64,000 nt of DNA from Planctomycetota bacterium (GCA_038227875.1 JBBRPR010000050.1:1-64000), one strand, 5' to 3'. Shown: positions 6,439 through 50,290, counted from the stretch's first letter. Program-made: numbers and translations. Notes: generated from the letters alone by a model not told the origin.

Positions 6439-6655
6439 GCGGCTCTTGGCTTTTGGGAGTCCTGTCGGGCTAAATGGTGCCATTTGGAAAACGTCGGCCA
6501 CTGGGAAGTTCTGGTGCAACTGGCACGGACGAAGCAGAGCGTAGCGTAGTTTCGGTCTTGCCAGTGCGATCGCAGTGGAAAATCAATTCGCCCCGACTCG
6601 CACCCATCCGCTCCGCTTATATTCAAGAGCCCAACAGCTAAGAGCCACGAGCCGC
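6439..6655. repeat. Inverted heptamer (GGCTCTT/AAGAGCC)-bounded intergenic element with internal hairpin
   Basis: Left GCGGCTCTTGGCTTTTGGG; right CAAGAGCCCAACAGCTAAGAGCCACGAGCCGC; internal ACTGGCA...TGCCAGT stem. Confidence 0.6.
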
Positions 6656-6656
6656 C

Positions 6657-7709
6657 CTACTCTTTCTGCGCCGCCAACCGCGGCAGATCGCGCACGATCT
6701 CCAGCATGAACCAGTCCGGCAATTTCCGGCCGCCGACATCGTCTTCACCGATCAACACCTGAGCAAACTCCAGATTGATCTCCGCCAATTCCTTGATCAG
6801 CCGCTTGGCGTGATGGACCAACTCCGCTTCGCGCGCGCGCCCGGCCGCATCTTCCGGTAGCCGCCGCAACAACTGCGCGCGGACCAGCTGCACCAGCATG
6901 TACAACATGCCCGTGTCGCCGTCGTTCGCTCGCGGCCACGTCTTCTCGCCGCGCAGTAGTTCCTCAACATTGAAACGCTCGCGCCGCATCTGCACGAACG
7001 TTTTGAACTGCGCCGCGTGCGAGGGACTCAAGACGCCCTGCGCCAGCACCCACGCTTTTTCAGTGTCGATCGCGTCGCCGTAGCTTTTCAGACAATCGCT
7101 GAGCAGATGCCAGCTGCGCGGCGTCGAGAACGGTTCCTGCGTCTTCGGCGGCGCGGTGAACAGTTGCTCTGGACGCAGCTTGATGAATTCGATGATATCC
7201 GGATGGATCTCGTTTTTCGCCGCCCACTCCAGCCAGTCTTTGGGATTCGGCTGCAATTCGACATGAACCATGCGGTTGATCAGCGCACTGGACATCTGCC
7301 GCGTGATGGCCTGATCGAACGCCCGGTTGCCCGCGCCGATCACGACCGAATTCTTATGCAGCTTGTAATTCCCCAGCCGTCGATCGTGAATCAAACTGTA
7401 GAAGGCCTTCTGCACTTCCGTCGACGACGCATTCAGTTCATCAAGAAAGAGCAGATACGGCTCGTCGCGCGCGATTTGTTCCGGCGGACAGAAGCGGCTC
7501 TTGCCGTCTTTGATCTGCGGCACGCCAATCAAATCTTCCGGCGCCAACTGTGTTCCCAGCAGCGTCACCACTTCCAGCCCGACCTCGAGCGCAAACTGCT
7601 CGACAAGACTGGACTTCCCAATCCCCGGCGGCCCCCAGATAAACACCGGCCGCACGCTGGCCACGTGGAGCAGAAAATCGATCAGATCGTTGGGTCGAAT
7701 GGCTTTCAT
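6657..7709 (-). CDS. MoxR-family AAA+ ATPase
   Basis: Walker A WGPPGIGKS, Walker B LLFLDELN, GAGNR, SALINR, FSTPRSW; start MKAIRP at 7709. Confidence 0.9.
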   Translation of the reverse strand: MKAIRPNDLIDFLLHVASVRPVFIWGPPGIGKSSLVEQFALEVGLEVVTLLGTQLAPEDLIGVPQIKDGKSRFCPPEQIARDEPYLLFLDELNASSTEVQKAFYSLIHDRRLGNYKLHKNSVVIGAGNRAFDQAITRQMSSALINRMVHVELQPNPKDWLEWAAKNEIHPDIIEFIKLRPEQLFTAPPKTQEPFSTPRSWHLLSDCLKSYGDAIDTEKAWVLAQGVLSPSHAAQFKTFVQMRRERFNVEELLRGEKTWPRANDGDTGMLYMLVQLVRAQLLRRLPEDAAGRAREAELVHHAKRLIKELAEINLEFAQVLIGEDDVGGRKLPDWFMLEIVRDLPRLAAQKE

Positions 7710-7764
7710 GCGCCCATCGTAGCGAAATTCACGCTCCTTTGCAGGAGGAGATTGGAGGCCTGAC

Positions 7765-7799
7765 TTATTGCGGATTTCGGATTGCGGATTGCGGATTAG
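7765..7799 (+). repeat. TTGCGGA heptamer array (left arm of inverted repeat)
   Basis: TTATTGCGGATTTCGGATTGCGGATTGCGGATTAG; 33/35 match to the reverse complement of 8288-8322. Confidence 0.9.
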
Positions 7800-7864
7800 A
7801 ATGGCGTGCGTGCAGCGAGAACTATACACCACTCATTTGCACGCACTACGGATAGAGCGATCGT

Positions 7865-8257
7865 ATGAATGCATTCCGTACTCGTCGATGGTTTCAATTG
7901 CACCTCAGCACTCTGGTATTCTTGTCGCTGACGTGGGCAGCATTTGTGGCATCAGAAATCTTACCGATTAGAACAAACATTGTTCATATGTCGCGGGACG
8001 GCGATACGTTAACCCAGAATTATGGATGGCCAAGCGTCTACGCCATTGGATGGCCCAATAACAATCCGCCCGCGATTTTGTACCGTGACTTTGGCACTCA
8101 TTTTATTGGCTCTAAAGAAGCCCTGTCCCGTTGGCCATCTATCCGCTCGGTACTCATTGATTTTGGAGCGGGCGTGGGGCTGCAAATTTGCATTATTGCT
8201 CTTCTCAAATGGCTGATCCGCCGCCGCCAGACCCAAACAGTAAAACCAACATCCTAA
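7865..8257 (+). CDS. Small low-GC membrane protein with N- and C-terminal TM helices (RRWFQLHLSTL...YGWP...WLIRRR)
   Basis: 130-aa ORF; two hydrophobic segments each flanked by Arg clusters; visibly AT-richer than neighbours. Confidence 0.7.
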   Translation: MNAFRTRRWFQLHLSTLVFLSLTWAAFVASEILPIRTNIVHMSRDGDTLTQNYGWPSVYAIGWPNNNPPAILYRDFGTHFIGSKEALSRWPSIRSVLIDFGAGVGLQICIIALLKWLIRRRQTQTVKPTS

Positions 8258-8287
8258 AAATATCATTTTCAAGTCCTCGCCCCCCAC

Positions 8288-8322
8288 CTAATCCGCAATC
8301 CGAAATCCGCAATCCGCAATAA
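8288..8322 (-). repeat. TCCGCAA heptamer array (right arm of inverted repeat)
   Basis: CTAATCCGCAATCCGAAATCCGCAATCCGCAATAA. Confidence 0.9.
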
Positions 8323-8395
8323 AAATCCCCTCCAGCCCATCCCACACCCTGCCGATATCAATCCCGGGGAAAATTACACACTCTAGGAGCCTGCC

Positions 8396-8848
8396 ATGTC
8401 CATCGAGACAGTCGTTGCGAAAGATATGACTGAAGCGGTCCGCGCGGAGTCCACTCCCGTCAGCGCACCGGCCGTGAAGAGCGTGCCCAACAAGCGCGTC
8501 TTCAATGCTGCCTCCAACTCGGCCGAATTCTTCGATCATCTCCGCGCGCATTTCAGAGAGACGCGCCGCACCCGCGTCGATATCGCCTGCGATCTGCAGT
8601 TGGTGCTCGGCGACGGCAGCCTCTTCGACTCCGGTACCGCGACGGTTCGTGATTTCTCACCCTCGGGCGCATTGCTCGGCAACATGAAGCTTCCCAAGGC
8701 CTGCTACCCGGCCGTGCCGTTCAAGGTCCTGGTGACGTTGAAGGGCGGCGATTACGCCGGCATCTGCTTCGAAGCCACGCCCGTCCGCATCGCCACCGAC
8801 ATGCCCGGCCTCGGGGTGCGATTTGACGAGATCGTCTGCCGCGTTTAA
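8396..8848 (+). CDS. PilZ-domain protein (putative c-di-GMP receptor)
   Basis: RxxxR (RETRR), D-x-S-x-x-G (DFSPSG), terminal GLGVRF; AGGAG SD upstream. Confidence 0.7.
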   Translation: MSIETVVAKDMTEAVRAESTPVSAPAVKSVPNKRVFNAASNSAEFFDHLRAHFRETRRTRVDIACDLQLVLGDGSLFDSGTATVRDFSPSGALLGNMKLPKACYPAVPFKVLVTLKGGDYAGICFEATPVRIATDMPGLGVRFDEIVCRV

Positions 8849-8899
8849 TTTTGTTCCTCGTGCGGCGGAACTGCGTGTCATGGCGGACGCCGCACGCTG

Positions 8900-9718
8900 A
8901 TGCGCGTACTCATCCTCTCTGATCTGCATCTGGGTAATAAGGCATCGAAGGCTCCCAGCCTCCTCGAAGGCCTCGCCAAACTTGCACACCTTCACGATCG
9001 CGTCATCCTCAATGGCGATACGCTCGACCGCTACGAATCGGTCGAGCGACTTCCGTACGTCGTCAGCCATCTCGAGACCATTAAAAGCGCCTGCGTCAGC
9101 CGTTCAGGCCCCGCGGAAATCATAACCGGTAATCACGACCCCGCGATTTCTGACCTACACTGGCTCTACCTCAAAGAATCCAGAACGCTCGTCTTTCACG
9201 GCGACTGCATCGCTGACGTGACGCATCCCAGCGACAAGAACGAGGGCCTGCTCGCTGCTTACGTTCGGAAGCATTGGGCCAGCATCGGCGGTCGTCCCAA
9301 CACATTCAGCGAGTTGGCCGACACCTACCGGCGCCTGCAGGGCGAACACCTCCGCAATTTTCCGCGCATCGAACCCGGTTCCAGCTTTCGCTACCTGACA
9401 CGCCTGCTCTACCCGCCGCGCCGGCCGTTCGATGTGCTCCGCTACGTCTTCAACGCGCCGCGCCTCGCCGCGGAACTCGCCCCGACGCACCACGAACCCG
9501 TCGAGCACATTGTCGTCGGCCATACGCACCGCCCGGGAACCTGGAAGATCAACGGCCGCACCGTGATGAACACCGGCAGCTTCATGCCGCTCTCGCAGCC
9601 CTCCGCCGTCGTGATCGAGAAGGGCGCGGAGCCCGTGCGCATCCCGCTGGTGAAGCTCATCCGCACATATACCACGACCGTCGTGCTGCCGATGCGGGAT
9701 TCGACCGCAGGGAGTTAG
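8900..9718 (+). CDS. Calcineurin-like metallophosphoesterase (LpxH-like)
   Basis: SDLHLG, LNGD, GNHD, HGD, GHTH motifs. Confidence 0.85.
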   Translation: MRVLILSDLHLGNKASKAPSLLEGLAKLAHLHDRVILNGDTLDRYESVERLPYVVSHLETIKSACVSRSGPAEIITGNHDPAISDLHWLYLKESRTLVFHGDCIADVTHPSDKNEGLLAAYVRKHWASIGGRPNTFSELADTYRRLQGEHLRNFPRIEPGSSFRYLTRLLYPPRRPFDVLRYVFNAPRLAAELAPTHHEPVEHIVVGHTHRPGTWKINGRTVMNTGSFMPLSQPSAVVIEKGAEPVRIPLVKLIRTYTTTVVLPMRDSTAGS

Positions 9719-9792
9719 TCTGAGTTTGCCGCTGCCTCCATTTAGAGTAAAATCAGTGCGACAGTCAGGATTGCTCAGGAGAGAAGACGGAA

Positions 9793-10191
9793 ATGCCCAC
9801 ATACGAGTACACGTGCGCCGCGTGCGGCCACGAATTTGAGCGCTTTGAAAGCATCACAGCGAAACCCAACAAGCTCTGCCCCAAATGCGGTAAGAAAAAA
9901 GGTGAGCGGCGGATCTCTGCCGGTGGCGGATTCCTGTTCAAAGGCAGCGGCTTCTACATCACCGACTACAAGAAGACCGGCTCCAAGCCCGCCGATGGCA
10001 AACCAGCCGAAGGCAAGCCTGCGGAAACGAAAGCCGGTACCGAACCCGCCAAATCCGGTGACAGCAAATCCACCGACAGCAAACCCGCCAGCACCGAAAG
10101 CAAACCCTCCGGCGACAGCGGTGGAGGCAGCAGCGGCGGTGGCGGCGACAAGAAGGGTTCCAAAGGCGGCTCCAAACCCAAAGTCGCCTGA
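9793..10191 (+). CDS. FmdB-family zinc-ribbon protein with low-complexity tail
   Basis: MPTYEYTCAACGHEFE..CPKCG..FKGSGFYITDY. Confidence 0.9.
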   Translation: MPTYEYTCAACGHEFERFESITAKPNKLCPKCGKKKGERRISAGGGFLFKGSGFYITDYKKTGSKPADGKPAEGKPAETKAGTEPAKSGDSKSTDSKPASTESKPSGDSGGGSSGGGGDKKGSKGGSKPKVA

Positions 10192-10214
10192 TCACCAATT
10201 CAATGGGTCCTGCA

Positions 10215-10250
10215 AACAAAAACTCCCCGCTAATGCGGGGAGTTTTTGTT
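10215..10250. terminator. Bidirectional intrinsic terminator
   Basis: AACAAAAACTCCCCGC-TAAT-GCGGGGAGTTTTTGTT between convergent genes. Confidence 0.9.
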
Positions 10251-10268
10251 CGTCGGTCCTCAGTCCCT

Positions 10269-11570
10269 TCAGCGGCAGCCGAGAATGCTCGCGCAATTCG
10301 TCAGCAGAATCCGCTCCGCCAGCGCCAGCGCGCTGGTCACATCCATCGGTTCCAGCGTCGTCGTGCCGCCGATCTGGCCTTCTTCGATCCGTTCGGCCAG
10401 TTCCATCGCCAACTGCAGGCGGTAGGTGTTGAACTTCGGCAACGTGAATTCCAGCGAGTACCCGTCGGAATGGAAGCCGATGAACTTCGTCCGCGGCAGC
10501 ACGTCCAGCCGGCGGCGCAGTTCGCGGCGGATGTCCACGGGATTGTTCGCGTACCACCAATGGCTCATCGGATAAACGTTGTGGCGAATCCAGCCCATTG
10601 CCGCTAATTCCAAGCCCGCGGTGTCGCTGACCACCATGAACGGAAAGCGCACATCAGAGTACGTATTCAAAAGCTTGTCGTAGCCGCGCAGATGGGCGTC
10701 GCAACGGAACAGATCCTGCCCAGCCGGAACGCCCTGCGGATATACGCCGCGGTCGGCACCGGCCATCAAACAGTACGGCGTCTTGACGCGGCGGCACTGC
10801 TTGGTGATCTCTTCGACGGCGAAGCTGGCCCACGTGCGCTTGGACTGATCGTCAAGCATCTGACCATCGGCAAGTTTCTTCAGCAAGGCCGGAGCCTGTG
10901 CTTCCGCGTTTTCGACAAAAGTAAAGCTCGGCGGCAAGCCCACCGCTGCGTAGCCCATCTTCCAGTCGCGGAAATTGGAGAAGATCGTCGTCAGCGCCGC
11001 GCGCCAGGCCCCAATGCTCGCTCCGGTTTTCGTGCCGGTCATCTTGTCGAGGCGTTCGACCATCTTGTTCACGTCGGCGTTGAAGACCAGGTCGTCGGTG
11101 CGCAGACACGGCACCAGGCGGCTGTCTTTCAGGCCCGAAAGATCTTCATCGAACTGATTGGTCAGGTACACCTGCTTGATGTTCGAGCGCTCCCACACCT
11201 TCTGAGCGTACGACTTGTCGCGGATCACGGCCTGCGCGCGCTTGACGATGTCGGCCTTCGTTTTCGAGAACCAATCGCCGCGCGGAATGTCGAGGAAAAC
11301 CTCGCTGATGCCCATCATCCAATCCAGCTGCACCGTGCCGCGCAGGTCGACGAGATGCGGCCAGACATAATCGATACGTTCATCCGGATCGTCGGGCAGC
11401 GGCACCGGCGTCCCGCGCGAACTGTTGCTCAGCTCCGTGTAGTAATGGTAGCCCAGCAGATCGCCGAAATGGGCGGCCACCGGCTGATGCGCGCGGACGT
11501 GCGTATGCGGATCGATGATCGGCATCTTGCGGAGTTCTTCGAGCAGCGTTTTGACCAGCGCGGTGTTCAT
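10269..11570 (-). CDS. Amidohydrolase-superfamily protein, uronate isomerase-like
   Basis: IIDPHTH, LGYHYY, PCLRTDDL, SHWWY, FHSDGYSLEF; start MNTAL at 11570. Confidence 0.7.
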   Translation of the reverse strand: MNTALVKTLLEELRKMPIIDPHTHVRAHQPVAAHFGDLLGYHYYTELSNSSRGTPVPLPDDPDERIDYVWPHLVDLRGTVQLDWMMGISEVFLDIPRGDWFSKTKADIVKRAQAVIRDKSYAQKVWERSNIKQVYLTNQFDEDLSGLKDSRLVPCLRTDDLVFNADVNKMVERLDKMTGTKTGASIGAWRAALTTIFSNFRDWKMGYAAVGLPPSFTFVENAEAQAPALLKKLADGQMLDDQSKRTWASFAVEEITKQCRRVKTPYCLMAGADRGVYPQGVPAGQDLFRCDAHLRGYDKLLNTYSDVRFPFMVVSDTAGLELAAMGWIRHNVYPMSHWWYANNPVDIRRELRRRLDVLPRTKFIGFHSDGYSLEFTLPKFNTYRLQLAMELAERIEEGQIGGTTTLEPMDVTSALALAERILLTNCASILGCR

Positions 11571-11639
11571 CGTCGATTTCTCCAAACGAAGCGTTGTCGC
11601 AAAAGATTCCACGCACCCAGCAACGCCGCAACGACCTAT

Positions 11640-11677
11640 TTGGAGTGACTCGGGCCATCTGGCCCGAGTCACTCCAA
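11640..11677. repeat. Perfect 18-bp stem palindrome (REP-like)
   Basis: TTGGAGTGACTCGGGCCA-TC-TGGCCCGAGTCACTCCAA. Confidence 0.75.
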
Positions 11678-11721
11678 TGCGCGGCGTCCCATCAGGTTAA
11701 TGCGATGTCAGCAGACATGCA

Positions 11722-11760
11722 ACGGCCCGCTGGTTTGCGGTGAGCAATCCAGCGGGCCGT
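11722..11760 (-). terminator. Hairpin downstream of rpmA, probable terminator
   Basis: ACGGCCCGCTGG...CCAGCGGGCCGT 12-bp stem, 15 nt after the rpmA stop; weak U-tract. Confidence 0.5.
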
Positions 11761-11775
11761 CGAAAATTCAAATGT

Positions 11776-12060
11776 TTACTTCGTGGCGGCGGCTTTTTCG
11801 GCTTCGACTTCCGCGACCGGAATCACGTGTACGCGCTTGGCGGACGTGCGATCGAAGCGAACGACGCCTTCAGCCAAAGCGAAGAGCGTGTAATCGCGGC
11901 CGAGACCGACGTTGCGGCCCGCCCGGAAGACCGTTCCGCGCTGGCGCAGAATGATGTTGCCCGGAATGACCACTTCACCACCGTAATGCTTCACGCCAAG
12001 ATACTTCGGCTTGCTGTCGCGACCGTTCTTGGATGAGCCCTGACCCTGTTTATGTGCCAT
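11776..12060 (-). CDS. rpmA: 50S ribosomal protein L27
   Basis: [50 protein letters not shown]. Confidence 0.98.
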
Positions 12061-12140
12061 GAGTGACGTCCTTTAAAACAAAAAAGCGAACCCAAACGTT
12101 CGCCGAATCGAAGCAGAAAATCTAACGCAGGCTTCCGGCA

Positions 12141-13271
12141 TTAGCAAGCTGATTTTAGGGATATACGCTCCAATAAGGGAGTGAGATTTTTTTGAATATC
12201 AAAATCCCGCTCTACCAGCTGCCGCGCGGCGGCCACCTTCCGGGGCACAATATTGCGATGGGCAGCAGCCATGGCCTCGGCCAGCAACCGGAAATTCCGC
12301 TCCGGAACAACGGTCCCGGTCTCCGGCGTGAGAATTTCAGGAAGGCTGCCCGCGCCGGTGCCGATCACCGGTAATCCAGCCGCGAAGGCTTCGAGAATCA
12401 CATTTGGAATGCCGTCGGCGTCCCCGTCCCCGGCCGTTTCGTATGGCGCCACCAGCGCGGTCGCGGTCTGAAAAACCGTCAATAATTCCAGCGATCCCAT
12501 CGGGGGCGTGAAGCGGATGCGGGATTCGAGATTCATTTTCCGAACCAGTTTCTCCAGCGACTTCTGCTCCGGCCCGTCGCCGATCAATTCCAGCTCAGCA
12601 CCGGATCCGGACATGCGCGGGTCACTCATGGCCTCAATCACGTACTGCAGGCCTTTCTTCTCGACGAACCGGCAGACGGCAATGAACTTTGGCTTGCTCC
12701 GTTCCGATTCTCCATGATCGGTGAAGGGAAATCGATCCAGCGGCAAGCCATGATGCATGCACGTGACCCGGGTCGCCCCGCGGGCTTTCAGAAATTCCAA
12801 CGCGCGGCAGTGGCAGGTAAAGATGTGGGATGCGTCGGCAATCTTCGCGTCGAGTTCCCGCGCCTCCACAAACAGGTCGCGCGCGTGCACCGAAATCGAA
12901 TACGGCACGTTCGCGCCCATGGCCGCAAAGCGGCCCACGCTCGACGGCACATTCGCGAAGTGACTGTGAATGTGTTCAAAGCCTTCGTTCAGGACGATGC
13001 GTTCCAGTTCTCCCGCCGCCTTGGTCGTGGAATTCACATCGCGATTGATGATTGGGATCGTGCCGTAGCTCAGCGGCAACAACCGGCTGCGATTTAACAG
13101 CCCCTCCCACTCCGAATCGTCGCCGAACGGCAGCGTGCCCTGCTTGAAATGAAACACCGTGAAGTCGACGCCGCGCCGCTTCAATTCCTGCAATTCGCGC
13201 GCAATGAACCGCTCGCTCCATTTCGGAAACGTGTCGACGACGACGGCGAGTTTGCGGTACTTGGCTTTCAT
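12141..13271 (-). CDS. GT4-family glycosyltransferase (WcaL-like)
   Basis: SERFIARE, HIHSHF, RFVEKKG, DGIPNVILEAFAAGLPVI. Confidence 0.9.
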   Translation of the reverse strand: MKAKYRKLAVVVDTFPKWSERFIARELQELKRRGVDFTVFHFKQGTLPFGDDSEWEGLLNRSRLLPLSYGTIPIINRDVNSTTKAAGELERIVLNEGFEHIHSHFANVPSSVGRFAAMGANVPYSISVHARDLFVEARELDAKIADASHIFTCHCRALEFLKARGATRVTCMHHGLPLDRFPFTDHGESERSKPKFIAVCRFVEKKGLQYVIEAMSDPRMSGSGAELELIGDGPEQKSLEKLVRKMNLESRIRFTPPMGSLELLTVFQTATALVAPYETAGDGDADGIPNVILEAFAAGLPVIGTGAGSLPEILTPETGTVVPERNFRLLAEAMAAAHRNIVPRKVAAARQLVERDFDIQKNLTPLLERISLKSAC

Positions 13272-14246: not shown

Positions 14247-14337
14247 GGTCAGGTTCTCGTTTCAGGTGGAGCCATCGGTTCGTCATCTATCTTCATTCTA
14301 ACGCGCCTCGCGGGGATTCAACACACAGAATGCCCCG

Positions 14338-16173: not shown

Positions 16174-16185
16174 CCATCGCACCTT

Positions 16186-18030: not shown

Positions 18031-18086
18031 GTTCCCGATTGTACGTCTTTTCTATTTTGGTGCCACGGATGCGCGGGTTTTCGAGA

Positions 18087-18224: not shown

Positions 18225-18226
18225 CT

Positions 18227-20196: not shown

Positions 20197-20244
20197 GGGT
20201 GTCGGCTCGCCTTGAGTTGTTCGGAACCCGGAACGGTTCTGAAA

Positions 20245-21939: not shown

Positions 21940-23229
21940 ATGACTCCCGACACACCCGGCGCCCCACCTCTCAATCCTCAGTCCTCAGCCCTCAGTCCTG
22001 TTCGTCCCGCTTTCCACGTCATGACCAAGCCGATCGGCGCGATCTGCAACATCGATTGCAAATACTGCTATTACCTCGAGAAAGAACAGCTCTACCCCGA
22101 CACGCGCAACTTCCGCATGACCGACGCCGCGCTGGAAAATTACGTCAAGCAGTACATCGAAGCGCAGTCGGTGCCGGAGATCGCGTTCGCCTGGCAGGGC
22201 GGCGAGCCCACGTTGCTCGGCGTCGACTTTTTCCGGCGCGCGGTGGAGCTTCAGAAAAAGTACTGCCCGCCCGGCAAGCGCATCACCAATGCGCTCCAGA
22301 CCAACGGCACATTGCTCAATGCCGAGTGGTGCGATTTCTTCCGCGAAAACGGTTTCCTGATCGGCCTGAGCATTGATGGCCCGCGCGATCTGCACGATTA
22401 CTACCGCGTCGACAAGGGCGGCAAGCCAACCTTCGACAAGGTGATGAAGGGCCTCGAACTGCTCAAAACGCACGGCGTCGAATTCAACACACTTACCGTC
22501 GTCAACCGGCAGAACTCCCGGCGCCCGCTGGACGTTTACAATTTCCTGAAACAGCACGGCAGCGGCTTTATTCAATTCATTCCGCTCGTGGAACGCGTCG
22601 GCGAAGGCCAATCGTTCGCCGCGCCGCCCGATCCCGATCCAGAGCACGCCGAGGAGAAGAACTCGCCAATCACGCCGTGGAGCGTCGAGTCGAAACAGTA
22701 CGGCGAATTCCTTTGCACGATTTTCGACGAGTGGGTCCACAACGATGTGGGCAACATTTTCATCCAGCTGTTTGAAGTGCAGTTGGCCATCTGGATGGGC
22801 AATCCCGCGGCACTCTGCGTCTTCGCCGAGACCTGCGGCGGCGCGATGGCCATGGAACACAACGGCGATCTGTATTCGTGCGACCACTATGTCTACGACA
22901 AGTTCAAACTCGGCAACATCAACCAGACGCCGATCACCGAGCTGGTGAATTCCGCCTTCCAGCAGAAGTTCGGGCTCGACAAGCGCGACGCGCTGCCCAA
23001 GTACTGCCGCGAATGCGACGTGCGCTTTGCCTGCAACGGCGAATGCCCGAAGCACCGCTTCATCAAAACACCCGACGGCGAGGACGGACTCAACTACCTC
23101 TGCGCCGGGTATTTAAAATTCTTTCATCACATCGATCCGTACATGAAACAGATGGGCGAATTGCTTAAGAATAGAAAGCCCGCCAGCCTGATCATGACCC
23201 AACTGGCGCGGCAGAAGCGGAAGAAATAG
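21940..23229 (+). CDS. Anaerobic sulfatase maturase (radical SAM/SPASM)
   Basis: [56 protein letters not shown]. Confidence 0.95.
21970..22000 (+). repeat. CTCAGTC heptamer tandem array inside the 5' end of the maturase gene
   Basis: CTCAATC CTCAGTC CTCAGCC CTCAGTC, translated as [10 protein letters not shown]. Confidence 0.7.
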
Positions 23230-23272: not shown

Positions 23273-24220
23273 ATGTCCGAGTACTGGAAGGGCAAGACCG
23301 TCATCGTCACCGGCGGCGCCGGTTTCCTGGGATCGTTTGTGTGTGAGCGGCTGCGAGCACGCGGCGTCAAAGAGATCATCACGCCGCGCCGCAAAGAATG
23401 CGACCTGACCGACGCAACAGTGGTGCGGAATCTTTACGCGAACGCCAAGCCGGACGTTGTACTCCATCTTGCGGCGGAAGTCGGCGGCATCGGCGCCAAC
23501 CAGGCCAATCCCGGCCGCTACTTTTTCGCCAACATGGCGATGGGTCTGAATCTCGTCGAAGAAGGACGCAAGTACGGCAAGCTCCAGAAATTCGTGCAAG
23601 TGGGAACCGTCTGCGCGTACCCGAAGTTCGCACCGGTCCCGTTCAAGGAAGAGGACATCTGGAACGGCTACCCCGAAGAAACCAACGCGCCGTATGGCGT
23701 CGCCAAAAAATCCCTGCTGGTGATGCTCGACGCCTACCGCCGGCAGTACGGCTTCAACGGCCTGTTCCTGATTCCCGTAAACCTCTACGGCCCGCGCGAC
23801 AACTTCGACCTCAACACCAGCCACGTCATCCCCGCGCTCATTCGCAAATGCGTCGAAGCCACCGACCACAGCGACGGCAAGATCGTCTGCTGGGGCACCG
23901 GCTCCGCGTCGCGTGAATTCCTTTACGTCGAAGATTGCGCCGATGGCATCGTCGCCGGCGCGGAACTTTACAACGCCAGCGATCCCGTGAACCTCGGTAC
24001 CGGCAGCGAAATCAGCATCAAAAATCTCGTCGAACTCATCGCCCGGCTCACCGGCTTCAAAGGCCGGATCGAATGGGACGCCACCCGCCCCGACGGTCAG
24101 CCCCGCCGCTGCCTCGACGTCTCCAAAGCGCAAAACCTCTTCGGCTTCAACGCCAAAGTCTCCTTCGAAGACGGCCTGGCCAAAACCATCGCTTGGTTTC
24201 GAGCGCAAAAGCGCGGCTAA
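23273..24220 (+). CDS. fcl: GDP-L-fucose synthase
   Basis: [65 protein letters not shown]. Confidence 0.93.
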
Positions 24221-24418
24221 GTCGCGAGGGGTTAGGGCTCAGAGTAGCGCGCGATTTACGGCTGAAGAATGTCTTCCGCCCTCCGGCAGGAAACCTTGCG
24301 CAATCGCGTAAGGAAATTCGACATTCAAACTACGCCCAACCCCCGAGGGCCAAGTTTTCGCCACACCACCGTCCTCTATTCTGACCCCTGGCCCCTGACC
24401 ACTGACCCCTCGCGGCTT
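24219..24418. repeat. Inverted heptamer (AGGGGTC/GACCCCT)-bounded intergenic element
   Basis: Left AAGTCGCGAGGGGTTAGGGCTCAGAGTAG; right CTATTCTGACCCCTGGCCCCTGACCACTGACCCCTCGCGGCTT. Confidence 0.7.
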
Positions 24419-26694
24419 GCCGCGAAGTCCATTGCCATCGACATCACCCACACCGTCATCCACGGCACAAACCAACGCGCGATGCCGCCGCGCGGTTTGC
24501 AGACCGGGTCGTGCGGGTGCTGAATGTAGTTGGTCTGATTGTACTGCTCCGTCTGCTCGCCGGGCTCGTCCATGCCCCACAGTTTCCCGGGACGCGCAAT
24601 CGTCTCGATGATCGGCACGAGCATGCGCCGCGCTTGCTCGCGGTACAGTCCGGCGTAAGCGCCAGGATCGGATTCCAGAAGCGTGGCGTACTGCGCGATT
24701 TCTGCGGCAGCAGAAAAGACGTGCAGATGCCGATTCTGCACCGACACGTCGCTTAATCCGTTCGTCCGAAATCCCGCGTCGCCCAGCAGCGTGCCCGGAA
24801 GTAGCGGCACGTTCCACGTGTATGCCCAGGTCAGCACCCAGTCCGCCGCGTGGCCTGCCCAACCGAGCAATTGTGCGAGATCGTTCGAGTCGGCGTGGCG
24901 CGCCGCTTGAACGCGGTAGAGCGTGCGCGCCGCGATCAGCAAAAACAATCCGGATTCCATGTCCTCACAACCGGAATCCAGCGCCGAACCGCACGGATGC
25001 GTGCCGCCACTGTCGAGAAACCCGGCAGCATACGCGCGCATCAGTTCCTGCGCCGTTGCGATGTACCGCTCACCGCCCGGCAGCGCGCTCGCTTCCGCCA
25101 GCGCTGCGACGCTCAGCGCGCCGGCGGTGACCGCTGCGCCCGGAAGGACTTCGCCCGTCGCCGACCACGCGAGCGGAAACAACCCGTCTCTGCGGCGGCG
25201 TTGGGGCTCGAGATACCAATCGAGCAATTCGAAGAAACTCTGCTCGCGCAACTCATTGGCGAGACCCGCTCGCCGCTGCGTCGCAAGCAACAAGGACAAC
25301 TCGTAGAGCGTCTCCCACGTCGCGCGCGCGTAGCCTTCGCTGGAACCCATCACATCGCCCCAGCGTTTCTGCTTGATCACATACCGCGTCGGCGCCGGCG
25401 CATTCCGCCGGACCGCGAGCAGCGCGGCGCTCAGCCAGCGAACGGCAATGCGGTCCCCCCGCCCCATCAAGTCCGCGTTGTTCGTGCGTTTTCCCCAACG
25501 CCAGAGCGACAAGCCCAGGCGCATGTTCTGTCCGACCCAGCCGTACTCCACCGACTGCTCCACGCCCGCGTACTCCGGGCGGTTGGGATACCAGAGCATC
25601 CCGCACGCGTTCTCGTCCTCAAACCAGCGGCTCAGTGCGTAGGAAACTTTCAGTCCGATGGCTTCTTCCAGCGCCGGAATTTCAACCCACGCGAGTTCCT
25701 CCGGAGTAAGCGCGGGCTGTTCGGACAAGCAACGCGTCAGCGGCCCGCGCCACGACTGCCAGGGCGTGGCCGCCGCGATCTGAAGTCGATAGTGCTTATC
25801 GTAAATCTGCCCCGGCCGCGCTTCCGTCCACGCGTCGAGATAATCGGCTGCGTGGTTCTGAGCGTCGTAGATCGTCTCGTTCTCGCCGTTCAGCGCGAGG
25901 CGTCCGGAGACCGACAGCAACCGCGCGCGCCCGGTTTTCGGAACCGCAATTCCCAGCGACCACCATTGATCGGGAAGATGTCCGTGCAGCACCGGCATCG
26001 GCGTGGTGTGCAGCGTGACGCCAAAAAGTTCGAGATTGACTTCCGTCTCGACGTGAACGAACGGCGACGGAAACTTGTGTTCCTCGAAGAGATTTTCCGC
26101 GTCCGCCGAAAGCCGCGGCACCAATCGAGAGGGCACTGCGCCCGGATTGCCGTCGTATAGTATTCCGGGAAGCAAATGTGAATGCAGCGTGCCGCAGACG
26201 TCGACGTGCGCCGAAAATTCCAACTGAGAAATGGGCTCCGCGCGTTCATGCCACCACGCGCGCCGCCAGTCCAGCACCCCCGGCCCCGTCCACGTAAACG
26301 TGTCGCGCAGCGAGATGAAAACATCCGCACCCGCCCGTACCGCACACTGCCGCGTCCATTCGAGGCTCGACCCGTTCACCGCAACGCTGCTGGACTGAAT
26401 CTCGCCGTGTTCACCACCGCGATACGCGCAAACCCCACCCATCGGAATCAGCGCGATACGGTTGTCACGAAACGAAACCGCCACCGCCGCTTCATCCGGA
26501 AGCGTCTCCAGTCGCCAGGGATGCAACTCGAGCGTCGAAATACCGCCTCCGGTAACAGAGTCATTGGCAAATTGGACATTTACGGGAGCGGATGACAAAC
26601 CGAAACCGCTTGCCACAACGCCCTTCCGTAAATGAAAAACGACCGATGACCAATGCCCAATGACCAATGACCAATGCCTCCGTTCAAGACTCAA
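24376..26694 (-). CDS. Hypothetical protein, probable (alpha/alpha)6 glycosidase-like; start uncertain (26694 TTG, 26526 TTG or 26442 ATG)
   Basis: Long ORF; YGWVGQ, ALDSGCEDMES, VSVQNRHLH, GEQTEQYNQTNY; helical Trp-rich C-half. Confidence 0.6.
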   Translation of the reverse strand: MSLERRHWSLVIGHWSSVVFHLRKGVVASGFGLSSAPVNVQFANDSVTGGGISTLELHPWRLETLPDEAAVAVSFRDNRIALIPMGGVCAYRGGEHGEIQSSSVAVNGSSLEWTRQCAVRAGADVFISLRDTFTWTGPGVLDWRRAWWHERAEPISQLEFSAHVDVCGTLHSHLLPGILYDGNPGAVPSRLVPRLSADAENLFEEHKFPSPFVHVETEVNLELFGVTLHTTPMPVLHGHLPDQWWSLGIAVPKTGRARLLSVSGRLALNGENETIYDAQNHAADYLDAWTEARPGQIYDKHYRLQIAAATPWQSWRGPLTRCLSEQPALTPEELAWVEIPALEEAIGLKVSYALSRWFEDENACGMLWYPNRPEYAGVEQSVEYGWVGQNMRLGLSLWRWGKRTNNADLMGRGDRIAVRWLSAALLAVRRNAPAPTRYVIKQKRWGDVMGSSEGYARATWETLYELSLLLATQRRAGLANELREQSFFELLDWYLEPQRRRRDGLFPLAWSATGEVLPGAAVTAGALSVAALAEASALPGGERYIATAQELMRAYAAGFLDSGGTHPCGSALDSGCEDMESGLFLLIAARTLYRVQAARHADSNDLAQLLGWAGHAADWVLTWAYTWNVPLLPGTLLGDAGFRTNGLSDVSVQNRHLHVFSAAAEIAQYATLLESDPGAYAGLYREQARRMLVPIIETIARPGKLWGMDEPGEQTEQYNQTNYIQHPHDPVCKPRGGIARWFVPWMTVWVMSMAMDFAASREGSVVRGQGSE
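26554..26684. mobile_element. MITE-like hairpin element with TTGGTCA/TGACCAA heptamer arms (copy A)
   Basis: AACAGAGTCATTGG...CATTTACGGGAGCGGATGACA...CGTAAATGAAAAA...CCAATGCCTCCGTT; homologous to 30057-30205. Confidence 0.75.
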
Positions 26695-30024: not shown

Positions 30025-30056
30025 CCCAGACTGTTACGTAAGCAGGTCTGGTGCTC

Positions 30057-30205
30057 AACGGAGTCATTGGGCATTGGGCATTGGTCATTGGTCATTTTTC
30101 ATGGGTCATTTACGGAGAGCGGATGACATGGCGCTCGACTCGCCGCAACGCTCTCGTAAATGAAAAATGACCAATGCCCAATGCCCAATGACCAATGACT
30201 CCGTT
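30057..30205. mobile_element. MITE-like hairpin element with TTGGTCA/TGACCAA heptamer arms (copy B)
   Basis: AACGGAGTCATTGGGCATTGGGCATTGGTCATTGGTCATTTTTCAT ... ATGAAAAATGACCAATGCCCAATGCCCAATGACCAATGACTCCGTT. Confidence 0.85.
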
Positions 30206-37292: not shown

Positions 37293-37303
37293 AGGCTCAA
37301 ACG

Positions 37304-37331
37304 AATCCCGAATCCCCATTCCCGAATCCCG
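37304..37331 (+). repeat. AATCCCG heptamer tandem array
   Basis: AATCCCG AATCCCC ATTCCCG AATCCCG in the spacer. Confidence 0.6.
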
Positions 37332-46123: not shown

Positions 46124-46201
46124 AGTTTTGAGTTTTAAGTTTTGAGTTACGTCTGCCGAGGCCAGACCCAACTCAAAACTCAAAACTCACAACTCAAAAC
46201 T
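46124..46201. repeat. Inverted heptamer (TTTTGAG/CTCAAAA) element with small central hairpin
   Basis: AGTTTTGAGTTTTAAGTTTTGAGTT - GTCTG..CAGAC - AACTCAAAACTCAAAACTCACAACTCAAAACT. Confidence 0.85.
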
Positions 46202-48452: not shown

Positions 48453-48625
48453 AAGTTCCGCCGAAACACGAAGCGATTTTGAAAATCAAACGTGGATATC
48501 CTGTGACGAATTCGTCGCAGGGTTGTGCTTTTTGTAGTCCGGGCGTCTCGCCCGGTCAAATCTCGGAAAATGCCAGCGGGTCAATTCGTTCGATTGACTT
48601 GCTGAATTGCGAAGCAAAGCCACTA

Positions 48626-48653
48626 GACCTTTGTGCCTTTGGGCACAAAGGTC
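48626..48653. repeat. REP-like palindrome GACCTTTGTGCC-N4-GGCACAAAGGTC (copy 1)
   Basis: 12-bp perfect stem identical to the core of 61668-61703. Confidence 0.8.
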
Positions 48654-48673
48654 AAAATGACCCAGTCGCACAT

Positions 48674-49165
48674 TCAAGTATGCGAATTGGCGATGATCAC
48701 CGTGTTGGCCAGCAATTCCGTCGTGGCGCACAGACGTTTGCAAACGGTGCGGCCGATGTTCAAGCTGATGCGCAGCGCGGTCAGGTTGTTCTCCGCGAGC
48801 TTGTTGGTGAAGAGTTTGCCCGGCAGGTAACCGACCATGACATTGGTGACCGCGCGGATCCCGGCGGTGCGGGCCTGGTTGTTGAGCAGCCCGATCTCGC
48901 CGAAGAAACTGGGCGCGGTGATTTCCGTCAGCTTCACGTTGCGGATGCTCGACGTTTTCACCACGGAGACCGTGCCGCCGGTGAGCACGTACATGCCGCA
49001 CGCCAGGCGGCCTTCGCGGATGATCTCCGCGCCCGCGAGGTAATCGCGGCGTTCCAGCCATGTGTAGAGTTCGTTGAGCTGTGACTGCTCAAGATCCTGA
49101 AAGATCTCGATTTTCTCGACGACTTTTTCCAGCATGGGTGTCCCTGCCATTTTTTTCTCCGCCAT
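48674..49165 (-). CDS. Stand-alone cyclic-nucleotide-binding domain protein
   Basis: IFQDL, IIREG, MYVLTGG, FFGEIGLL..RTAGIRA; start MAEKK at 49165. Confidence 0.85.
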   Translation of the reverse strand: MAEKKMAGTPMLEKVVEKIEIFQDLEQSQLNELYTWLERRDYLAGAEIIREGRLACGMYVLTGGTVSVVKTSSIRNVKLTEITAPSFFGEIGLLNNQARTAGIRAVTNVMVGYLPGKLFTNKLAENNLTALRISLNIGRTVCKRLCATTELLANTVIIANSHT

Positions 49166-49346
49166 ATAAACTCTATCCTCACCCATCGCATTTGACAGAC
49201 GGAACGTTCCCGGAATCCATTTATAATAAGCAGCGCGAAAAAAATCCTGAAATGAACATGTGCAACTCTTTCGCTTTCGAGATTTTTTCGGCGGGATATG
49301 CTGACTTTCCGCACGCTGCGAAAATTTCCCACAAAGAGGACTCGTC

Positions 49347-50219
49347 ATGAAGGGCATCATTCTCGCCGGCGGCTCGGGCACGCGTCTTTACCCCATCACC
49401 CGCGTCGTCAGCAAACAACTGCTCCCGGTTTTCGACAAGCCGATGATCTACTATCCGCTCTCCACATTGATGCTCAGCGGCATCCGTGAAATCCTGGTCA
49501 TCTCCACGCCGGAAGATCTGCCGCGCTTCGAACAATTGCTCGGCGATGGCGCGCAGTGGGGCTTGAAATTTCACTACAAAGTTCAGCACACGCCCAACGG
49601 CCTGGCGCAGGCGTTCGTGATCGGTCGCGACTTTGTCGGCAGCGACAGTGTCGCGCTGGTTCTTGGTGACAACATTTTTTATGGCCACGGCTTGAGCCGC
49701 CTGCTTCAGAATGCCGCGCAGCAAAAAGATGGCGGAACGGTCTTCGGTTACTGGGTGAAAGATCCCGAGCGCTACGGCGTGGCGGAAGTGAGCAAAGAGG
49801 GAAAGGTCCTGAGCCTCGAGGAAAAGCCTGCGAAGCCCAAGTCGCATTACGCGGTCACCGGACTTTACTACTACGACCACCAGGTGCTCGACATCGCGCA
49901 GGCGCTGAAGCCTTCCGCGCGCGGCGAGTACGAAATCACCGACGTCAACAAGGAGTACCTCCGCCGCGGCCAGCTCCGCTTGGAATTCCTCGGCCGCGGC
50001 ATGGCGTGGCTGGATACCGGCACGCACGAATCGCTTCACGAAGCGTCGAGCTTCATCGAGACGATCGAGAAGCGCCAGGGCCTGAAAGTCGCGTGTCCCG
50101 AAGAGATCGCCTACCGCATGAAGTACATCGATGCCGCCCAGGTTCTCAAGCTGGCCGAACCGCTGAAGAAGAATTCGTACGGGCAGTATTTGTTTCAGGT
50201 GCTGGAAGACAGGATGTAA
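49347..50219 (+). CDS. rfbA: Glucose-1-phosphate thymidylyltransferase
   Basis: [52 protein letters not shown]. Confidence 0.97.
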
Positions 50220-50220
50220 G

Positions 50221-50290
50221 GGCAATTTTGAATTCTTATTTTGAATTTTGAATTACTGCCGCGCGAAGTAATTCAAAATTAAAAATTGCC
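50221..50290. repeat. Inverted heptamer (TTTTGAA/TTCAAAA) element
   Basis: GGCAATTTTGAATTCTTATTTTGAATTTTGAATTACT...AGTAATTCAAAATTAAAAATTGCC right after the rfbA stop. Confidence 0.85.

What the first reader, a model, noticed from the sequence alone, without database searches (positions are those of the whole stretch)
6439..50290. Window-wide system of inverted heptamer-array 'cassettes' with shared architecture and polarity
Seen: seven intergenic elements consist of a 7-bp tandem array, a filler, then the inverted array: 6439-6655 (GGCTCTT), 7765-8322 (TTGCGGA), 24219-24418 (AGGGGTC), 26554-26684 and 30057-30205 (TTGGTCA), 46124-46201 (TTTTGAG), 50221-50290 (TTTTGAA). Six different units share the same period and geometry, and the G/T-rich arm always comes first. 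Most begin within a few nt of a stop codon. Fillers range from ~20 bp hairpins to ~490 bp with a gene. Established: TTGGTCA matches cyanobacterial STRR-type heptamers, and heptamer runs are seen beside four-helix-bundle (TIGR02436-type) genes; I know of no settled mechanism. Inference: these may be empty, partly deleted and loaded states of a gene-cassette insertion/excision system whose enzyme acts in trans, since no recombinase is in the window.
Basis: partly seen in the sequence, partly recalled or inferred. Interest (0 to 1): 0.78.

Follow-up and report, generated by a model that had tools for sequence, protein, structure and literature searches.

The report
Heptamer-repeat hairpins behind stop codons
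The gaps between genes of this uncultured planctomycete hold hundreds of long hairpins whose arms are runs of 7-base repeats, always with the G/T-rich arm first, a large multi-family example of a long-known but unexplained bacterial repeat class and not a demonstrated gene-cassette system.

Summary
All seven elements exist; three (6439, 24219, 26554) have one decayed arm. Genome-wide (9.3 Mb), period-7 arrays dominate tandem repeats: 633 with ≥4 copies, against 17 of period 8. They form about 15 families. 178 of 185 inverted pairs have the G/T-rich arm first, and 173 of 175 are intergenic, a median ~9 nt behind a stop codon.

The cassette reading is only partly supported. About 8 of 185 pairs enclose an ORF. 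Only one, outside the window, encloses a four-helix-bundle gene. No gene remnants, integron integrase, flanked transposase or empty allele was found. In related genomes, however, 22 of 30 four-helix-bundle genes sit inside such inverted arrays.

Polarity, stop-codon proximity, inverted pairing and ~4-unit arms were published for Xanthomonas/Nostoc G-rich heptamers (PMC4692102). This scan has met the class before on other DNA.

What is added here:
- The rule also holds for families that cannot form quadruplexes.
- Arms keep their sequence without compensatory change.
- Orthologous gene ends in other genera carry different heptamers.

Best reading: dispersed hairpin modules that spread as units and fold in transcripts at gene ends. 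Their function is inferred, not shown.

The parts
6439..6466 (.). Element 1, left (G/T-rich) arm of the GGCTCTT family, about 2 units plus the family's inner stem GAGTCCTGTCGG
   Evidence: Sequence read. Matches other family copies at 92-100%. The same inner stem is seen in family members.
6624..6655 (.). Element 1, right (A/C-rich) arm with decayed AAGAGCC units. It ends 1 nt before the stop of the minus-strand gene 6657-7709.
6511..6580 (.). About 70-nt dispersed repeat of another kind, nested in the filler of element 1
   Evidence: More than 20 other copies at 75-91% identity in the genome
7765..7799 (.). Element 2, left arm (ATTGCGG x4.4, second unit ATTTCGG)
   Evidence: The identical 31-nt arm occurs in several other genera.
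7865..8257 (+). Cargo ORF of element 2: 130 aa, low G+C filler (0.49), no known family
   Evidence: Found in 3 of 201 genomes of the phylum, G000 included; best foreign E 6.6e-6.
8288..8322 (.). Element 2, right arm (AATCCGC x4.4)
24219..24242 (.). Element 3, left arm (AGGGGTC family, about 2 units). It starts on the stop codon of gene 23267-24220.
24381..24418 (.). Element 3, right arm (CTGACCC x4.3). It overlaps the last codons of the ORF called at 24376-26616 (-).
26554..26590 (.). Element 4, decayed left arm of the GGTCATT family with the family's inner stem TTTACGGGAGCG
26631..26684 (.). Element 4, right arm (GACCAAT x5.1) plus end motif CTCCGTT
30057..30102 (.). Element 5, left arm: end motif AACGGA plus GGTCATT-type units
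30160..30205 (.). Element 5, right arm. It ends directly at the stop codon of gene 30206-32857 (-).
46124..46148 (.). Element 6, left arm (AGTTTTG x3.6)
46170..46201 (.). Element 6, right arm (AACTCAA x4.6)
50221..50257 (.). Element 7, left arm (AATTTTG x4.6). It starts 2 nt after the stop of gene 49347-50219.
50267..50290 (.). Element 7, right arm (about 2-3 units)
4628..4650 (.). Solitary array CTGACCC x3.3 (not in the finding). It reads G/T-rich on the sense strand at the 3' end of ORF 4617-6434 (-).
21970..21999 (.). Solitary array CTCAGTC x4.3 (not in the finding), A/C-rich on the sense strand, 22 nt before the start at 22021
37302..37331 (.). Solitary array CGAATCC x4.3 (not in the finding), between the stop at 37292 and the start at 37354

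Best explanation
The seven elements belong to a genome-wide population of about 700 heptamer-array sites. About 180 are clean hairpins and about 160 more have one decayed arm. This is the planctomycete counterpart of the STRR / G-rich-heptamer repeats of cyanobacteria and Xanthomonas.

Anatomy (shown). Each of about 15 families is a module with four parts:
- an outer end, AACNG...CNGTT in several families;
- an arm of about 31 nt made of 4-4.6 imperfect heptamers;
- a family-specific inner stem;
- a variable tip.

Behaviour (shown). The two arms are installed together as one inverted, same-family pair. The modules sit directly behind stop codons. The G/T-rich arm always faces the gene end, and the A/C-rich arm faces the next start codon.

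Mechanism (inferred). The modules spread as copy-and-paste hairpin units. They are the gene-less majority of the design that, in relatives, encloses four-helix-bundle ('23S rRNA intervening-sequence protein') genes. Once transcribed with the upstream gene they fold into -20 to -90 kcal/mol stems. These stems act at the RNA level as 3'-end or intercistronic processing and insulating hairpins. RNase III cutting, as for rRNA intervening sequences, is the most likely route. It would leave a G/U-rich 3' tail on the upstream RNA and an unstructured A/C-rich leader on the downstream one.

They are not integron-like gene cassettes.
For: Class and abundance:
- Period 7 dominates tandem repeats.
- There are 967 arrays, about 15 families of 20-88 arrays each, and 211 inverted against 44 direct same-unit pairs.

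The pair is the unit:
- Of adjacent arrays <=300 nt apart, 165 are same-family inverted, 2 same-family direct and 46 of different families.

Polarity:
- 178 of 185 pairs are G/T-first.
- 131 of 159 arrays with a decayed partner are in the G/T-first configuration.
- Solitary arrays near a 3' end read G/T-rich on the sense strand 158:45. Those nearest a 5' end read A/C-rich 105:27.

Position:
- 173 of 175 pairs are intergenic: tandem 110, convergent 47, divergent 16. The background is 4422/1114/1103.
- After extending the palindrome, the distance from stop codon to element peaks at 2-6 nt.

Module structure and copying:
- Conserved variant-unit patterns, inner stems and constant ~27-nt tips are seen in the GGTCATT family. 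15 of its fillers cluster together.
- Arm length peaks at 30-32 nt in 312 of 967 arrays.
- Same-family neighbouring sites number 41 of 267 against 12.8 +/- 3.5 in shuffles.
- The identical 31-nt ATTGCGG arm occurs in other genera whose moxR gene is only 74-78% identical.

Recurrent installation at gene ends:
- 7 of 9 genomes carry TRF-flagged arrays at one or both ends of the moxR orthologue, each with a different unit.

Link to the loaded design:
- 22 of 30 four-helix-bundle loci in the order lie inside inverted arrays, 19 of these 22 G/T-first.
- Two such heptamers are dispersed, genome-specific families: 540 pattern hits in G008 and 29 in G014, none in the other 3 genomes searched each time.

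Strong folds: mean MFE about -70 kcal/mol; z down to -14.

Published parallel: Xanthomonas/Nostoc G-rich heptamers show the same strand rule, inverted pairs and about 4 units, and are mostly transcribed (PMC4692102; passages and Discussion read).
Against: - No RNA data exist for this organism, so transcription, cleavage and any effect on expression are untested.
- The hairpins are not canonical terminators. None of the 11 terminator-like sites in 24000-31000 coincides with an element. Some copies carry a T-run before and an A-run after the stem, the reverse of a bidirectional terminator.
- No RNA-specific signature was found. Sense and antisense folds are equally stable in 105 tandem contexts (-70.0 against -69.2, p 0.17), and G-U pairs number 420 against 390.
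- No compensatory evolution. Arm-to-arm identity within an element equals identity between elements in all 10 families tested, for example 0.909 against 0.906. What is kept is the sequence, not merely the pairing. That fits protein or guide recognition, or recent copying, at least as well as an RNA stem.
- Against simple copy-paste: 89 of 141 fillers are unrelated to any other. No target duplication was seen. No enzyme was identified.
- This genome has 15 families but only 2 TIGR02436 matches. A family-specific four-helix-bundle protein cannot serve most families here, although the genome is 88% complete.
Confidence: 0.5

Rival explanations
1. Gene-cassette insertion/excision system. The inverted arrays are recombination sites. 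Fillers are cargo that a trans-acting recombinase moves in and out, and short elements are empty or deleted states.
For: - Loaded forms exist with low-G+C fillers (0.46-0.52) holding single small ORFs of 130-163 aa at 5-6 loci.
- Four-helix-bundle genes are bracketed in 22 of 30 loci.
- AACNG...CNGTT ends occur at 73 and 82 of 178 element ends against 8% background. From recall, they resemble the attC core.
- Several genes are flanked by two same-family hairpins whose fillers are related, for example C2:103891/105001 and C14:17797/19079.
Against: - Only about 8 of 185 pairs hold an ORF.
- Cargo ORFs share no family.
- Homologues of one cargo gene elsewhere are unflanked, 3 of 3.
- No gene remnants in 698 other sites.
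- No integron integrase and no array-flanked transposase.
- The elements are scattered singly among housekeeping genes, not arranged in cassette arrays.
- No empty or excised form was found.
Confidence: 0.08
2. DNA-level protein-binding arrays. The roughly four phased heptamers per arm are binding sites for an oligomeric protein: a four-helix-bundle pentamer or a host nucleoid or regulatory protein. The sequence, not the hairpin, is what matters.
For: - Arms keep the family sequence without compensatory change.
- The exact 31-nt arm is conserved across genera.
- Arm length is preferred at 4.3-4.6 units in all families, including those unable to form quadruplexes.
- The G000 four-helix-bundle protein matches PDB 2GSC (E 5.8e-23) and 2RLD, each deposited with 5 chains.
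- A Nostoc preprint speculates that a heptamer-binding protein exists; passages of 10.1101/2022.06.06.494920 were read.
Against: - There are 15 families but only 2 four-helix-bundle genes here.
- The near-obligate inverted pairing (165 against 2 direct) and the strand rule relative to genes are not needed for simple binding.
- No binding was tested.
Confidence: 0.17
3. Functionless selfish or slippage-prone simple repeats. Purifying selection merely confines them to the only tolerated places, the short gaps behind stop codons.
For: - Orthologous sites turn over quickly.
- Many copies are decayed or one-armed: 159 with a degenerate partner and 445 solitary.
- There is no strand-specific RNA signature.
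- The elements are depleted between divergent genes, where promoters lie.
Against: - Slippage does not explain same-family inverted pairing.
- It does not explain the shared polarity of unrelated units.
- It does not explain the conserved variant-unit order and inner stems.
- It does not explain the preferred 31-nt arm.
- It does not explain identical arms in different genera.
Confidence: 0.2
4. REP/REPIN elements mobilised by a RAYT (Y1 HUH) transposase.
For: The elements are intergenic palindromic doublets in many copies and several families. The genome has 8 Y1_Tnp matches, 4 of them strong.
Against: No Y1_Tnp gene is flanked by heptamer arrays; the nearest arrays lie 1.3-2.5 kb away at 3 of 7 loci. 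The arms are tandem heptamers, not REP-type short palindromes.
Confidence: 0.03

Closest known systems
G-rich heptamer repeats of Xanthomonas (GGGAATC) and Nostoc (GGGGA(C/T)T), Rehm et al. 2015, PMC4692102 (passages and Discussion read)
   Same: - Tandem heptamers that are intergenic.
[quoted passage not shown]
- Under-represented between divergent ORFs.
- 70-75 convergent inverted pairs per genome.
- A preferred size of four units.
- Function unknown.
   Different: - Here about 15 families coexist. Many (AGTTTTG, ATTTTCC, GGTCATT, GAATTTT) cannot form G-quadruplexes, yet they obey the same polarity and the same ~4.4-unit arm length.
- Inverted pairing is the rule, not a minority.
- Arms carry family-specific inner stems and shared end motifs.
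Cyanobacterial STRR heptamers (Mazel et al. 1990; recalled, not read here) and the Nostoc heptamers TTCAAAA and GAC(C/T)AAT upstream of recF and recO (preprint 10.1101/2022.06.06.494920, passages read)
   Same: The same or rotated units (TTGGTCA/GACCAAT, TTTTGAA/TTCAAAA) occur in this window. In Nostoc the A/C-rich reading lies just before start codons, as here.
   Different: - Different phylum.
- Here most arrays are paired into hairpins.
- The identity of STRR2 with TTGGTCA rests on my recall; the search did not retrieve it.
ORF-bearing intervening sequences of 23S rRNA (PF05635 / TIGR02436 four-helix-bundle protein inside an RNase III-cut stem); literature recalled, not read here
   Same: A long stem made of inverted repeats encloses a four-helix-bundle gene. 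This is seen at C9:108834-109377 in this genome and at 22 of 30 loci in the order.
   Different: - None of the seven window elements holds such a gene.
- They lie between protein genes, not in rRNA.
- RNase III cleavage is untested.
REP/BIME/REPIN elements and MITEs
   Same: Dispersed intergenic palindromes in families, close to gene 3' ends.
   Different: - No RAYT association.
- No target-site duplication was seen.
- Arms are tandem heptamers.
- Tips and fillers are mostly unrelated between copies.
Integron attC sites and cassettes
   Same: Imperfect palindromes with a variable centre. The AAC...GTT-type ends resemble the R''/R' cores (recalled). Occasional small orphan ORFs are present.
   Different: - No IntI.
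- No cassette arrays.
- The elements are scattered singly behind housekeeping genes.
- Sequence, not structure, is conserved.

Membership tests
Heptamer SSR / STRR-type intergenic repeats | Tandem 7-nt units in excess over other periods | tested here: met
   633 period-7 arrays with >=4 copies, against 127 (period 6) and 17 (period 8)
Heptamer SSR / STRR-type intergenic repeats | Intergenic, close to the stop codon with the G-rich strand as coding strand; rare between divergent genes (as in PMC4692102) | tested here: met
   173 of 175 intergenic. Distances to 3' ends cluster at 3-16 nt. 16 divergent against 110 tandem and 47 convergent. Solitary arrays 158:45 and 105:27.
Heptamer SSR / STRR-type intergenic repeats | G-quadruplex-forming unit (proposed rationale for the Xanthomonas/Nostoc repeats) | tested here: not met
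   Large families AGTTTTG (81 arrays), GGTCATT (57), GAATTTT (50) and ATTTTCC (34) have no G-runs, yet share polarity and arm length.
IVS-like four-helix-bundle cassette | PF05635/TIGR02436 gene between the inverted arms | tested here: not met
   None of the 7 window elements holds one. The only cargo ORF (7865-8257) has no family. Genome-wide, 1 of 699 sites has one.
IVS-like four-helix-bundle cassette | Same arm design (inverted 7-8-mer arrays, G/T-first) around the gene in relatives | tested here: met
   22 of 30 loci, 19 of the 22 G/T-first. 21 of 28 without the unpublished genome G017.
IVS-like four-helix-bundle cassette | Excision of the stem-loop from RNA by RNase III | not testable with these tools
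   No RNA run is listed for this organism.
Integron (attC / cassette) | Integron integrase IntI | tested here: not met
   TIGR02249 best hit 80.4 bits against a cut-off of 265; the genome is 88% complete.
Integron (attC / cassette) | Cassettes in a directly repeated array, one attC each | tested here: not met
   Elements are single and scattered, and arms are inverted around the filler.
REP/REPIN-RAYT | RAYT (Y1_Tnp) gene flanked by its own repeats | tested here: not met
   None of 8 Y1_Tnp matches has flanking arrays.
MITE | Terminal inverted repeats plus target-site duplication, with the whole element conserved between copies | tested here: inconclusive
   Terminal inverted repeats are present. 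No direct repeat is seen outside the ends. Whole-element similarity holds only in some families: 15 GGTCATT copies cluster, but 89 of 141 fillers are singletons.
Intrinsic terminator | G+C-rich stem followed by a T-run | tested here: not met
   None of the 11 terminator-like sites in 24000-31000 lies on an element. Only that region was scanned.

The most novel reading that the evidence does not exclude
Heptamer-array hairpins and the four-helix-bundle 'intervening-sequence' cassettes are one kind of mobile element. It would be a hairpin module without a transposase, whose arms are phased recognition sites for an Avd-like pentameric protein. It is installed as a pair directly behind stop codons in a fixed G/U-to-A/C direction, and it reshapes transcripts by double-strand RNA cleavage.

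On this reading the hundreds of gene-less hairpins here are its non-autonomous copies. The occasional orphan ORFs are captured passengers.
Probability: 0.2. Interest if true: 0.8.

Novelty: new member of a known kind. Interest (0 to 1): 0.5.

Why it matters
Tandem heptamers have been the most over-represented long simple repeat in several bacterial phyla since they were noticed around 1990, and nobody knows what they do.

This genome gives a clean test set of about 15 families and 700 sites. It shows that the gene-relative strand rule and the roughly four-unit arm are not properties of G-quadruplexes. It also shows three further constraints:
- the two arms arrive as a same-family pair;
- the sequence, not the pairing, is what is kept;
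- gene ends are refilled with different heptamers in different genera.

Any mechanism has to fit these constraints. Together they point to concrete experiments: RNA end mapping, RNase III cleavage, and binding by the associated four-helix-bundle protein.

If the link to the intervening-sequence cassettes holds, two old puzzles become one.

Tried and rejected
- RNA evidence: no RNA holder is listed for the stretch 7700-12700.
- Empty or excised alleles: contigs of four other samples were laid on 7700-26700. They gave joints 7795/7797 to 8290 that skip 492-494 nt, with 19-34 other letters between. The loose ends at 7767 and 8320 agree only 0.39-0.47. These are therefore other ATTGCGG hairpins from other loci or organisms, not an empty allele of this locus. 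Most pieces listed were 180-680 nt, too short to bridge other elements.
- Paralogous empty sites: both flanks of the array sites were blasted against the genome. Only one unrelated case, an array inside a repeated gene, came up.
- Second orthologous site: the gene 30206-32857 turned out to be a multi-copy family. The 4 homologous ends read carry no hairpin, but they are not orthologues.
- Close relatives: no genome of the same genus is held. The nearest have moxR at 74-78% nucleotide identity, so intergenic DNA does not align.
- Cargo homologues: the window ORF matches 3 of 201 genomes weakly, G000 included. The C18 cargo matches only itself. The C7 cargo has 3 distant homologues without arrays.
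- Rfam: 0 matches in the window at gathering score.
- Captured filler DNA: 34 of 141 fillers hit elsewhere in the genome, all through other dispersed repeats or family inner stems, not gene fragments.
- Stop codon supplied by the element: stop-codon usage beside elements (TGA 70, TAA 55, TAG 52) resembles the genome's.
- Literature: searches for heptanucleotide repeats in planctomycetes (0 papers) and for the four-helix-bundle/heptamer link (6 papers, none relevant by title or abstract) found no description. One search did not retrieve the STRR unit sequences.
- The Beggiatoa TAACTGA paper (PMC4679880, passages read) concerns direct repeats upstream of starts, with a single inverted case.

Full report
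**What is in the window**

TRF reports 44 tandem-repeat rows, 14 of them with period 7. The inverted-repeat scan recovers four of the seven claimed elements as clean palindromes:
- 7765-7799 / 8288-8322: 35 nt, 94% complementary, 488 nt apart.
- 30057-30102 / 30160-30205: 46 nt, 96%.
- 46124-46201.
- 50238-50257 / 50267-50286.

Two elements are lopsided, with one good array and one decayed arm: 24219-24418 and 26554-26684. The seventh, 6439-6655, is too decayed for either tool. Its ends match other GGCTCTT-family copies at 92-100%. It also carries that family's inner stem.

As RNA the clean ones fold far better than shuffles: z -14.2, -7.8/-9.1 and -4.3. Three further solitary arrays, at 4628, 21970 and 37302, were not in the finding.

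**The genome**

The window is contig C50 of a 9.34-Mb, 176-contig assembly with 59.6% G+C and 88% completeness. Its nearest held relatives are uncultured Planctomycetota MAGs (record titles).

Period 7 dominates all tandem repeats: 633 arrays of four or more copies, against 127 for period 6 and 17 for period 8. The 967 arrays of at least 2.8 copies fall into about 15 large families of 20-88 arrays each.

Adjacent arrays no more than 300 nt apart split as follows:
- 165 same-family inverted;
- 2 same-family direct;
- 46 of different families.

The inverted same-family pair is therefore the unit. It is not a chance meeting of two arrays. A further 159 arrays have a decayed inverted partner within 400 nt, and 445 look solitary.

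**Polarity**

In 178 of 185 pairs (spacer up to 700 nt) the first arm is G/T-rich. Five of the 7 exceptions lie in A/T-rich families where the label is nearly arbitrary.

A palindrome reads the same on both strands. This is therefore a property of the element (G/T-rich 5' arm on either strand), not of the chromosome strand. Of the 159 arrays with a decayed partner, 131 are in the G/T-first configuration.

Solitary arrays, which could lie either way, also follow a gene-relative rule:
- Near a 3' end they read G/T-rich on the sense strand, 158 to 45.
- Nearest a 5' end they read A/C-rich, 105 to 27.

One caution applies. A surviving arm of a decayed hairpin would inherit this orientation from its position alone. 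The solitary counts are therefore not independent proof of a transcription-linked rule.

**Position**

I used a crude codon-usage gene caller of my own, which gives 6,815 genes covering 85% of the genome. By these of 175 pairs are intergenic. They split into 110 tandem, 47 convergent and 16 divergent contexts, against a background of 4,422/1,114/1,103 gaps.

Distances to the nearest 3' end are tight: most fall at 3-16 nt from the array, and the peak is at 2-6 nt once the palindrome is extended outward. Distances to 5' ends are broad. In the window, element 5 runs from 33 nt after one stop codon exactly up to the convergent gene's stop codon.

**Anatomy of a family**

Copies share more than the heptamer:
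- They share the order of variant units, for example ATTGCGG-ATTTCGG-ATTGCGG-ATTGCGG.
- They share a family-specific inner stem: TTTACGGAGAGCG in the GGTCATT family, GAGTCCTGTCGG in GGCTCTT, AATAGAGCG in AGGGGTC.
- In the GGTCATT family the tip has a constant length of about 27 nt and a variable sequence.

Arm length peaks at 30-32 nt, or 4.3-4.6 units, in 312 of 967 arrays, whatever the unit.

Several families share an outer end motif, AACNG ... CNGTT. It occurs at 73 and 82 of 178 element ends, against 8% in random intergenic 22-mers and 7.6% behind 6,765 stop codons. The AGGGGTC family instead has a small G+C hairpin outside each arm, often with the stop codon in its loop.

Fillers are mostly unrelated: 89 of 141 are singletons in an all-against-all BLAST. 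Some longer ones hold other dispersed repeats.

**RNA-stem selection or sequence selection?**

Two tests bear on this.

First, in 105 tandem contexts the sense-strand RNA fold is no more stable than the antisense fold: -70.0 against -69.2 kcal/mol, Wilcoxon p 0.17. G-U pairs are equally common, 420 against 390.

Second, the two arms of one element are no more alike than arms of different elements, in all 10 families tested; for example 0.909 against 0.906 and 0.922 against 0.927.

There is thus no sign of compensatory change. Each arm stays close to the family sequence. That fits recent copying from a master or recognition of the sequence itself. It weakens, without excluding, a purely structural RNA role.

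**Relatives**

No genome of the same genus is held. The moxR-like gene next to elements 1 and 2 is 74-78% identical in eight other genera. Yet the exact 31-nt ATTGCGG arm recurs in several of those genomes and at high depth in contigs of other samples.

At the orthologous gene ends the heptamers differ. TRF flags arrays downstream of the stop in 4 of 9 genomes and upstream of the start in 4 of 9. In all, 7 of 9 genomes have at least one, and no two share a unit. Gene ends are thus refilled again and again with different families.

Within this genome, same-family sites are neighbours more often than labels shuffled among sites predict: 41 of 267 against 12.8 +/- 3.5, with a maximum of 26 in 1,000 shuffles. 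About nine of the 41 are the two arms of loaded elements.

**Cargo and enzymes**

Among pairs with spacers of 160-3,000 nt, about eight enclose a single ORF with nothing else between the arms. Their fillers have low G+C, 0.46-0.52. Only one has a family: a TIGR02436/PF05635 four-helix-bundle protein at C9:109015-109332, between AGGGGTC arrays. It matches PDB entries 2GSC (a Xanthomonas campestris protein, E 5.8e-23) and 2RLD.

The window's own cargo ORF (7865-8257) and four others are orphans. Three distant homologues of one of them are not flanked by arrays.

I built a profile from 24 of 25 four-helix-bundle proteins of relatives; one had an internal stop and was left out. It finds the intact gene (E 3e-36) and nothing else among 699 array sites; the next best E-value is 8.

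No integron integrase reaches the curated score: 80 bits against 265. No Y1 transposase gene is flanked by arrays.

**The loaded design in relatives**

In 20 genomes of the order, G000 included, 16 have TIGR02436 genes. Of the 30 loci fetched, 22 have inverted arrays of the same 7- or 8-mer on either side of the gene. Nineteen of those 22 are G/T-first.

Two of the 30 loci, one of them among the 22, belong to the unpublished genome G017. Without them the figure is 21 of 28.

Two of these heptamers were counted genome-wide. One gives 540 pattern hits in its own genome (G008) and none in three others. The other gives 29 hits in G014, many within 25 kb of the gene, and none in three others. Loaded copies therefore coexist with gene-less copies of the same family.

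Relatives also have four-helix-bundle genes inside units that are gene-less here: ATTTTCC, and a GTCATTT-type unit.

This bracketed-gene design has been met many times before in this scan, on other DNA. I found no paper describing it.

**What is already known**

Rehm et al. 2015 (PMC4692102; passages and Discussion read) describe for the GGGAATC and GGGGA(C/T)T repeats of Xanthomonas and Nostoc:
- an intergenic location;
- the same strand rule, with the G-rich strand within 50 bp behind the stop on the coding strand, or upstream of ORFs on the non-coding strand;
- under-representation between divergent ORFs;
- 70-75 convergent inverted pairs per genome;
- a preferred size of four units;
- transcription of most copies;
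- no known function.

They tie the four units to G-quadruplex formation. Here families without any G-run obey the same rules, so quadruplexes cannot be the common cause.

A Nostoc preprint (10.1101/2022.06.06.494920; passages read) reports TTCAAAA and GAC(C/T)AAT runs just before start codons. These are the same units as window elements 7, 4 and 5, in the A/C-rich reading that the rule predicts.

**Verdict**

Empty and loaded forms of one design do exist. Nothing I could test shows cassette insertion or excision, and cargo is the exception.

The best reading is a population of hairpin modules that spread as pairs and sit behind stop codons, where their transcripts must fold. The RNA-processing role is inferred from position, fold strength and the analogy with rRNA intervening sequences. 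It is not shown, and the lack of compensatory change keeps a sequence-recognition model alive.

Noticed in passing
window 6511-6580: The filler of element 1 holds a separate ~70-nt dispersed repeat with more than 20 other copies in the genome at 75-91% identity. Some copies also lie inside other heptamer hairpins.
   Followed up: partly
G000 contigs C15:29866-30250, C24:41722-42013, C2:237226-237695, C133:5490-6059: The longer hairpin fillers contain 165-280-nt dispersed repeats, with 47-63 BLAST hits each elsewhere in the genome. Their identity is unknown.
   Followed up: no
window 18087-18224: The longest inverted repeat in the window: 62-nt arms, 79% complementary, 14 nt apart. It lies between ORFs 16186-18030 and 18227-18529 and is not a heptamer array.
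   Followed up: no
window 11640-11677 and 61668-61703: Two perfect 18-nt palindromes with 2 and 0 nt between the arms.
   Followed up: no
window 29907-29934 and 29997-30017: 10-nt tandem repeats (AGCGGACAAA type) lie inside the 3' end of ORF 29338-30024, just before hairpin 5.
   Followed up: no
G000 AGGGGTC-family copies, e.g. C20:40999, C8:20777, C70:34382: Each arm is preceded on the outside by a small G+C-rich hairpin. Its loop often contains the neighbouring gene's stop codon (TGA or TAA), so the last codons of the ORF form half of that stem.
   Followed up: partly
G014:C2:1275716-1300457: Arrays of the heptamer that brackets this genome's four-helix-bundle gene (at 1278936) cluster within about 25 kb of it. 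19 of the 29 pattern hits fall in this stretch. This suggests local spread.
   Followed up: no
G000 C2:103891-105155 and C14:17797-19264: Single genes are flanked on both sides by complete hairpins of one family whose fillers are also related to each other. The layout is hairpin-gene-hairpin, which could be a duplication or a composite unit.
   Followed up: partly
window 7700-8333: Contigs of three other samples pile up on the ATTGCGG arms at summed depth 260-1,730, against about 4-6 on the next genes. This exact arm is therefore common in other organisms of those samples.
   Followed up: partly
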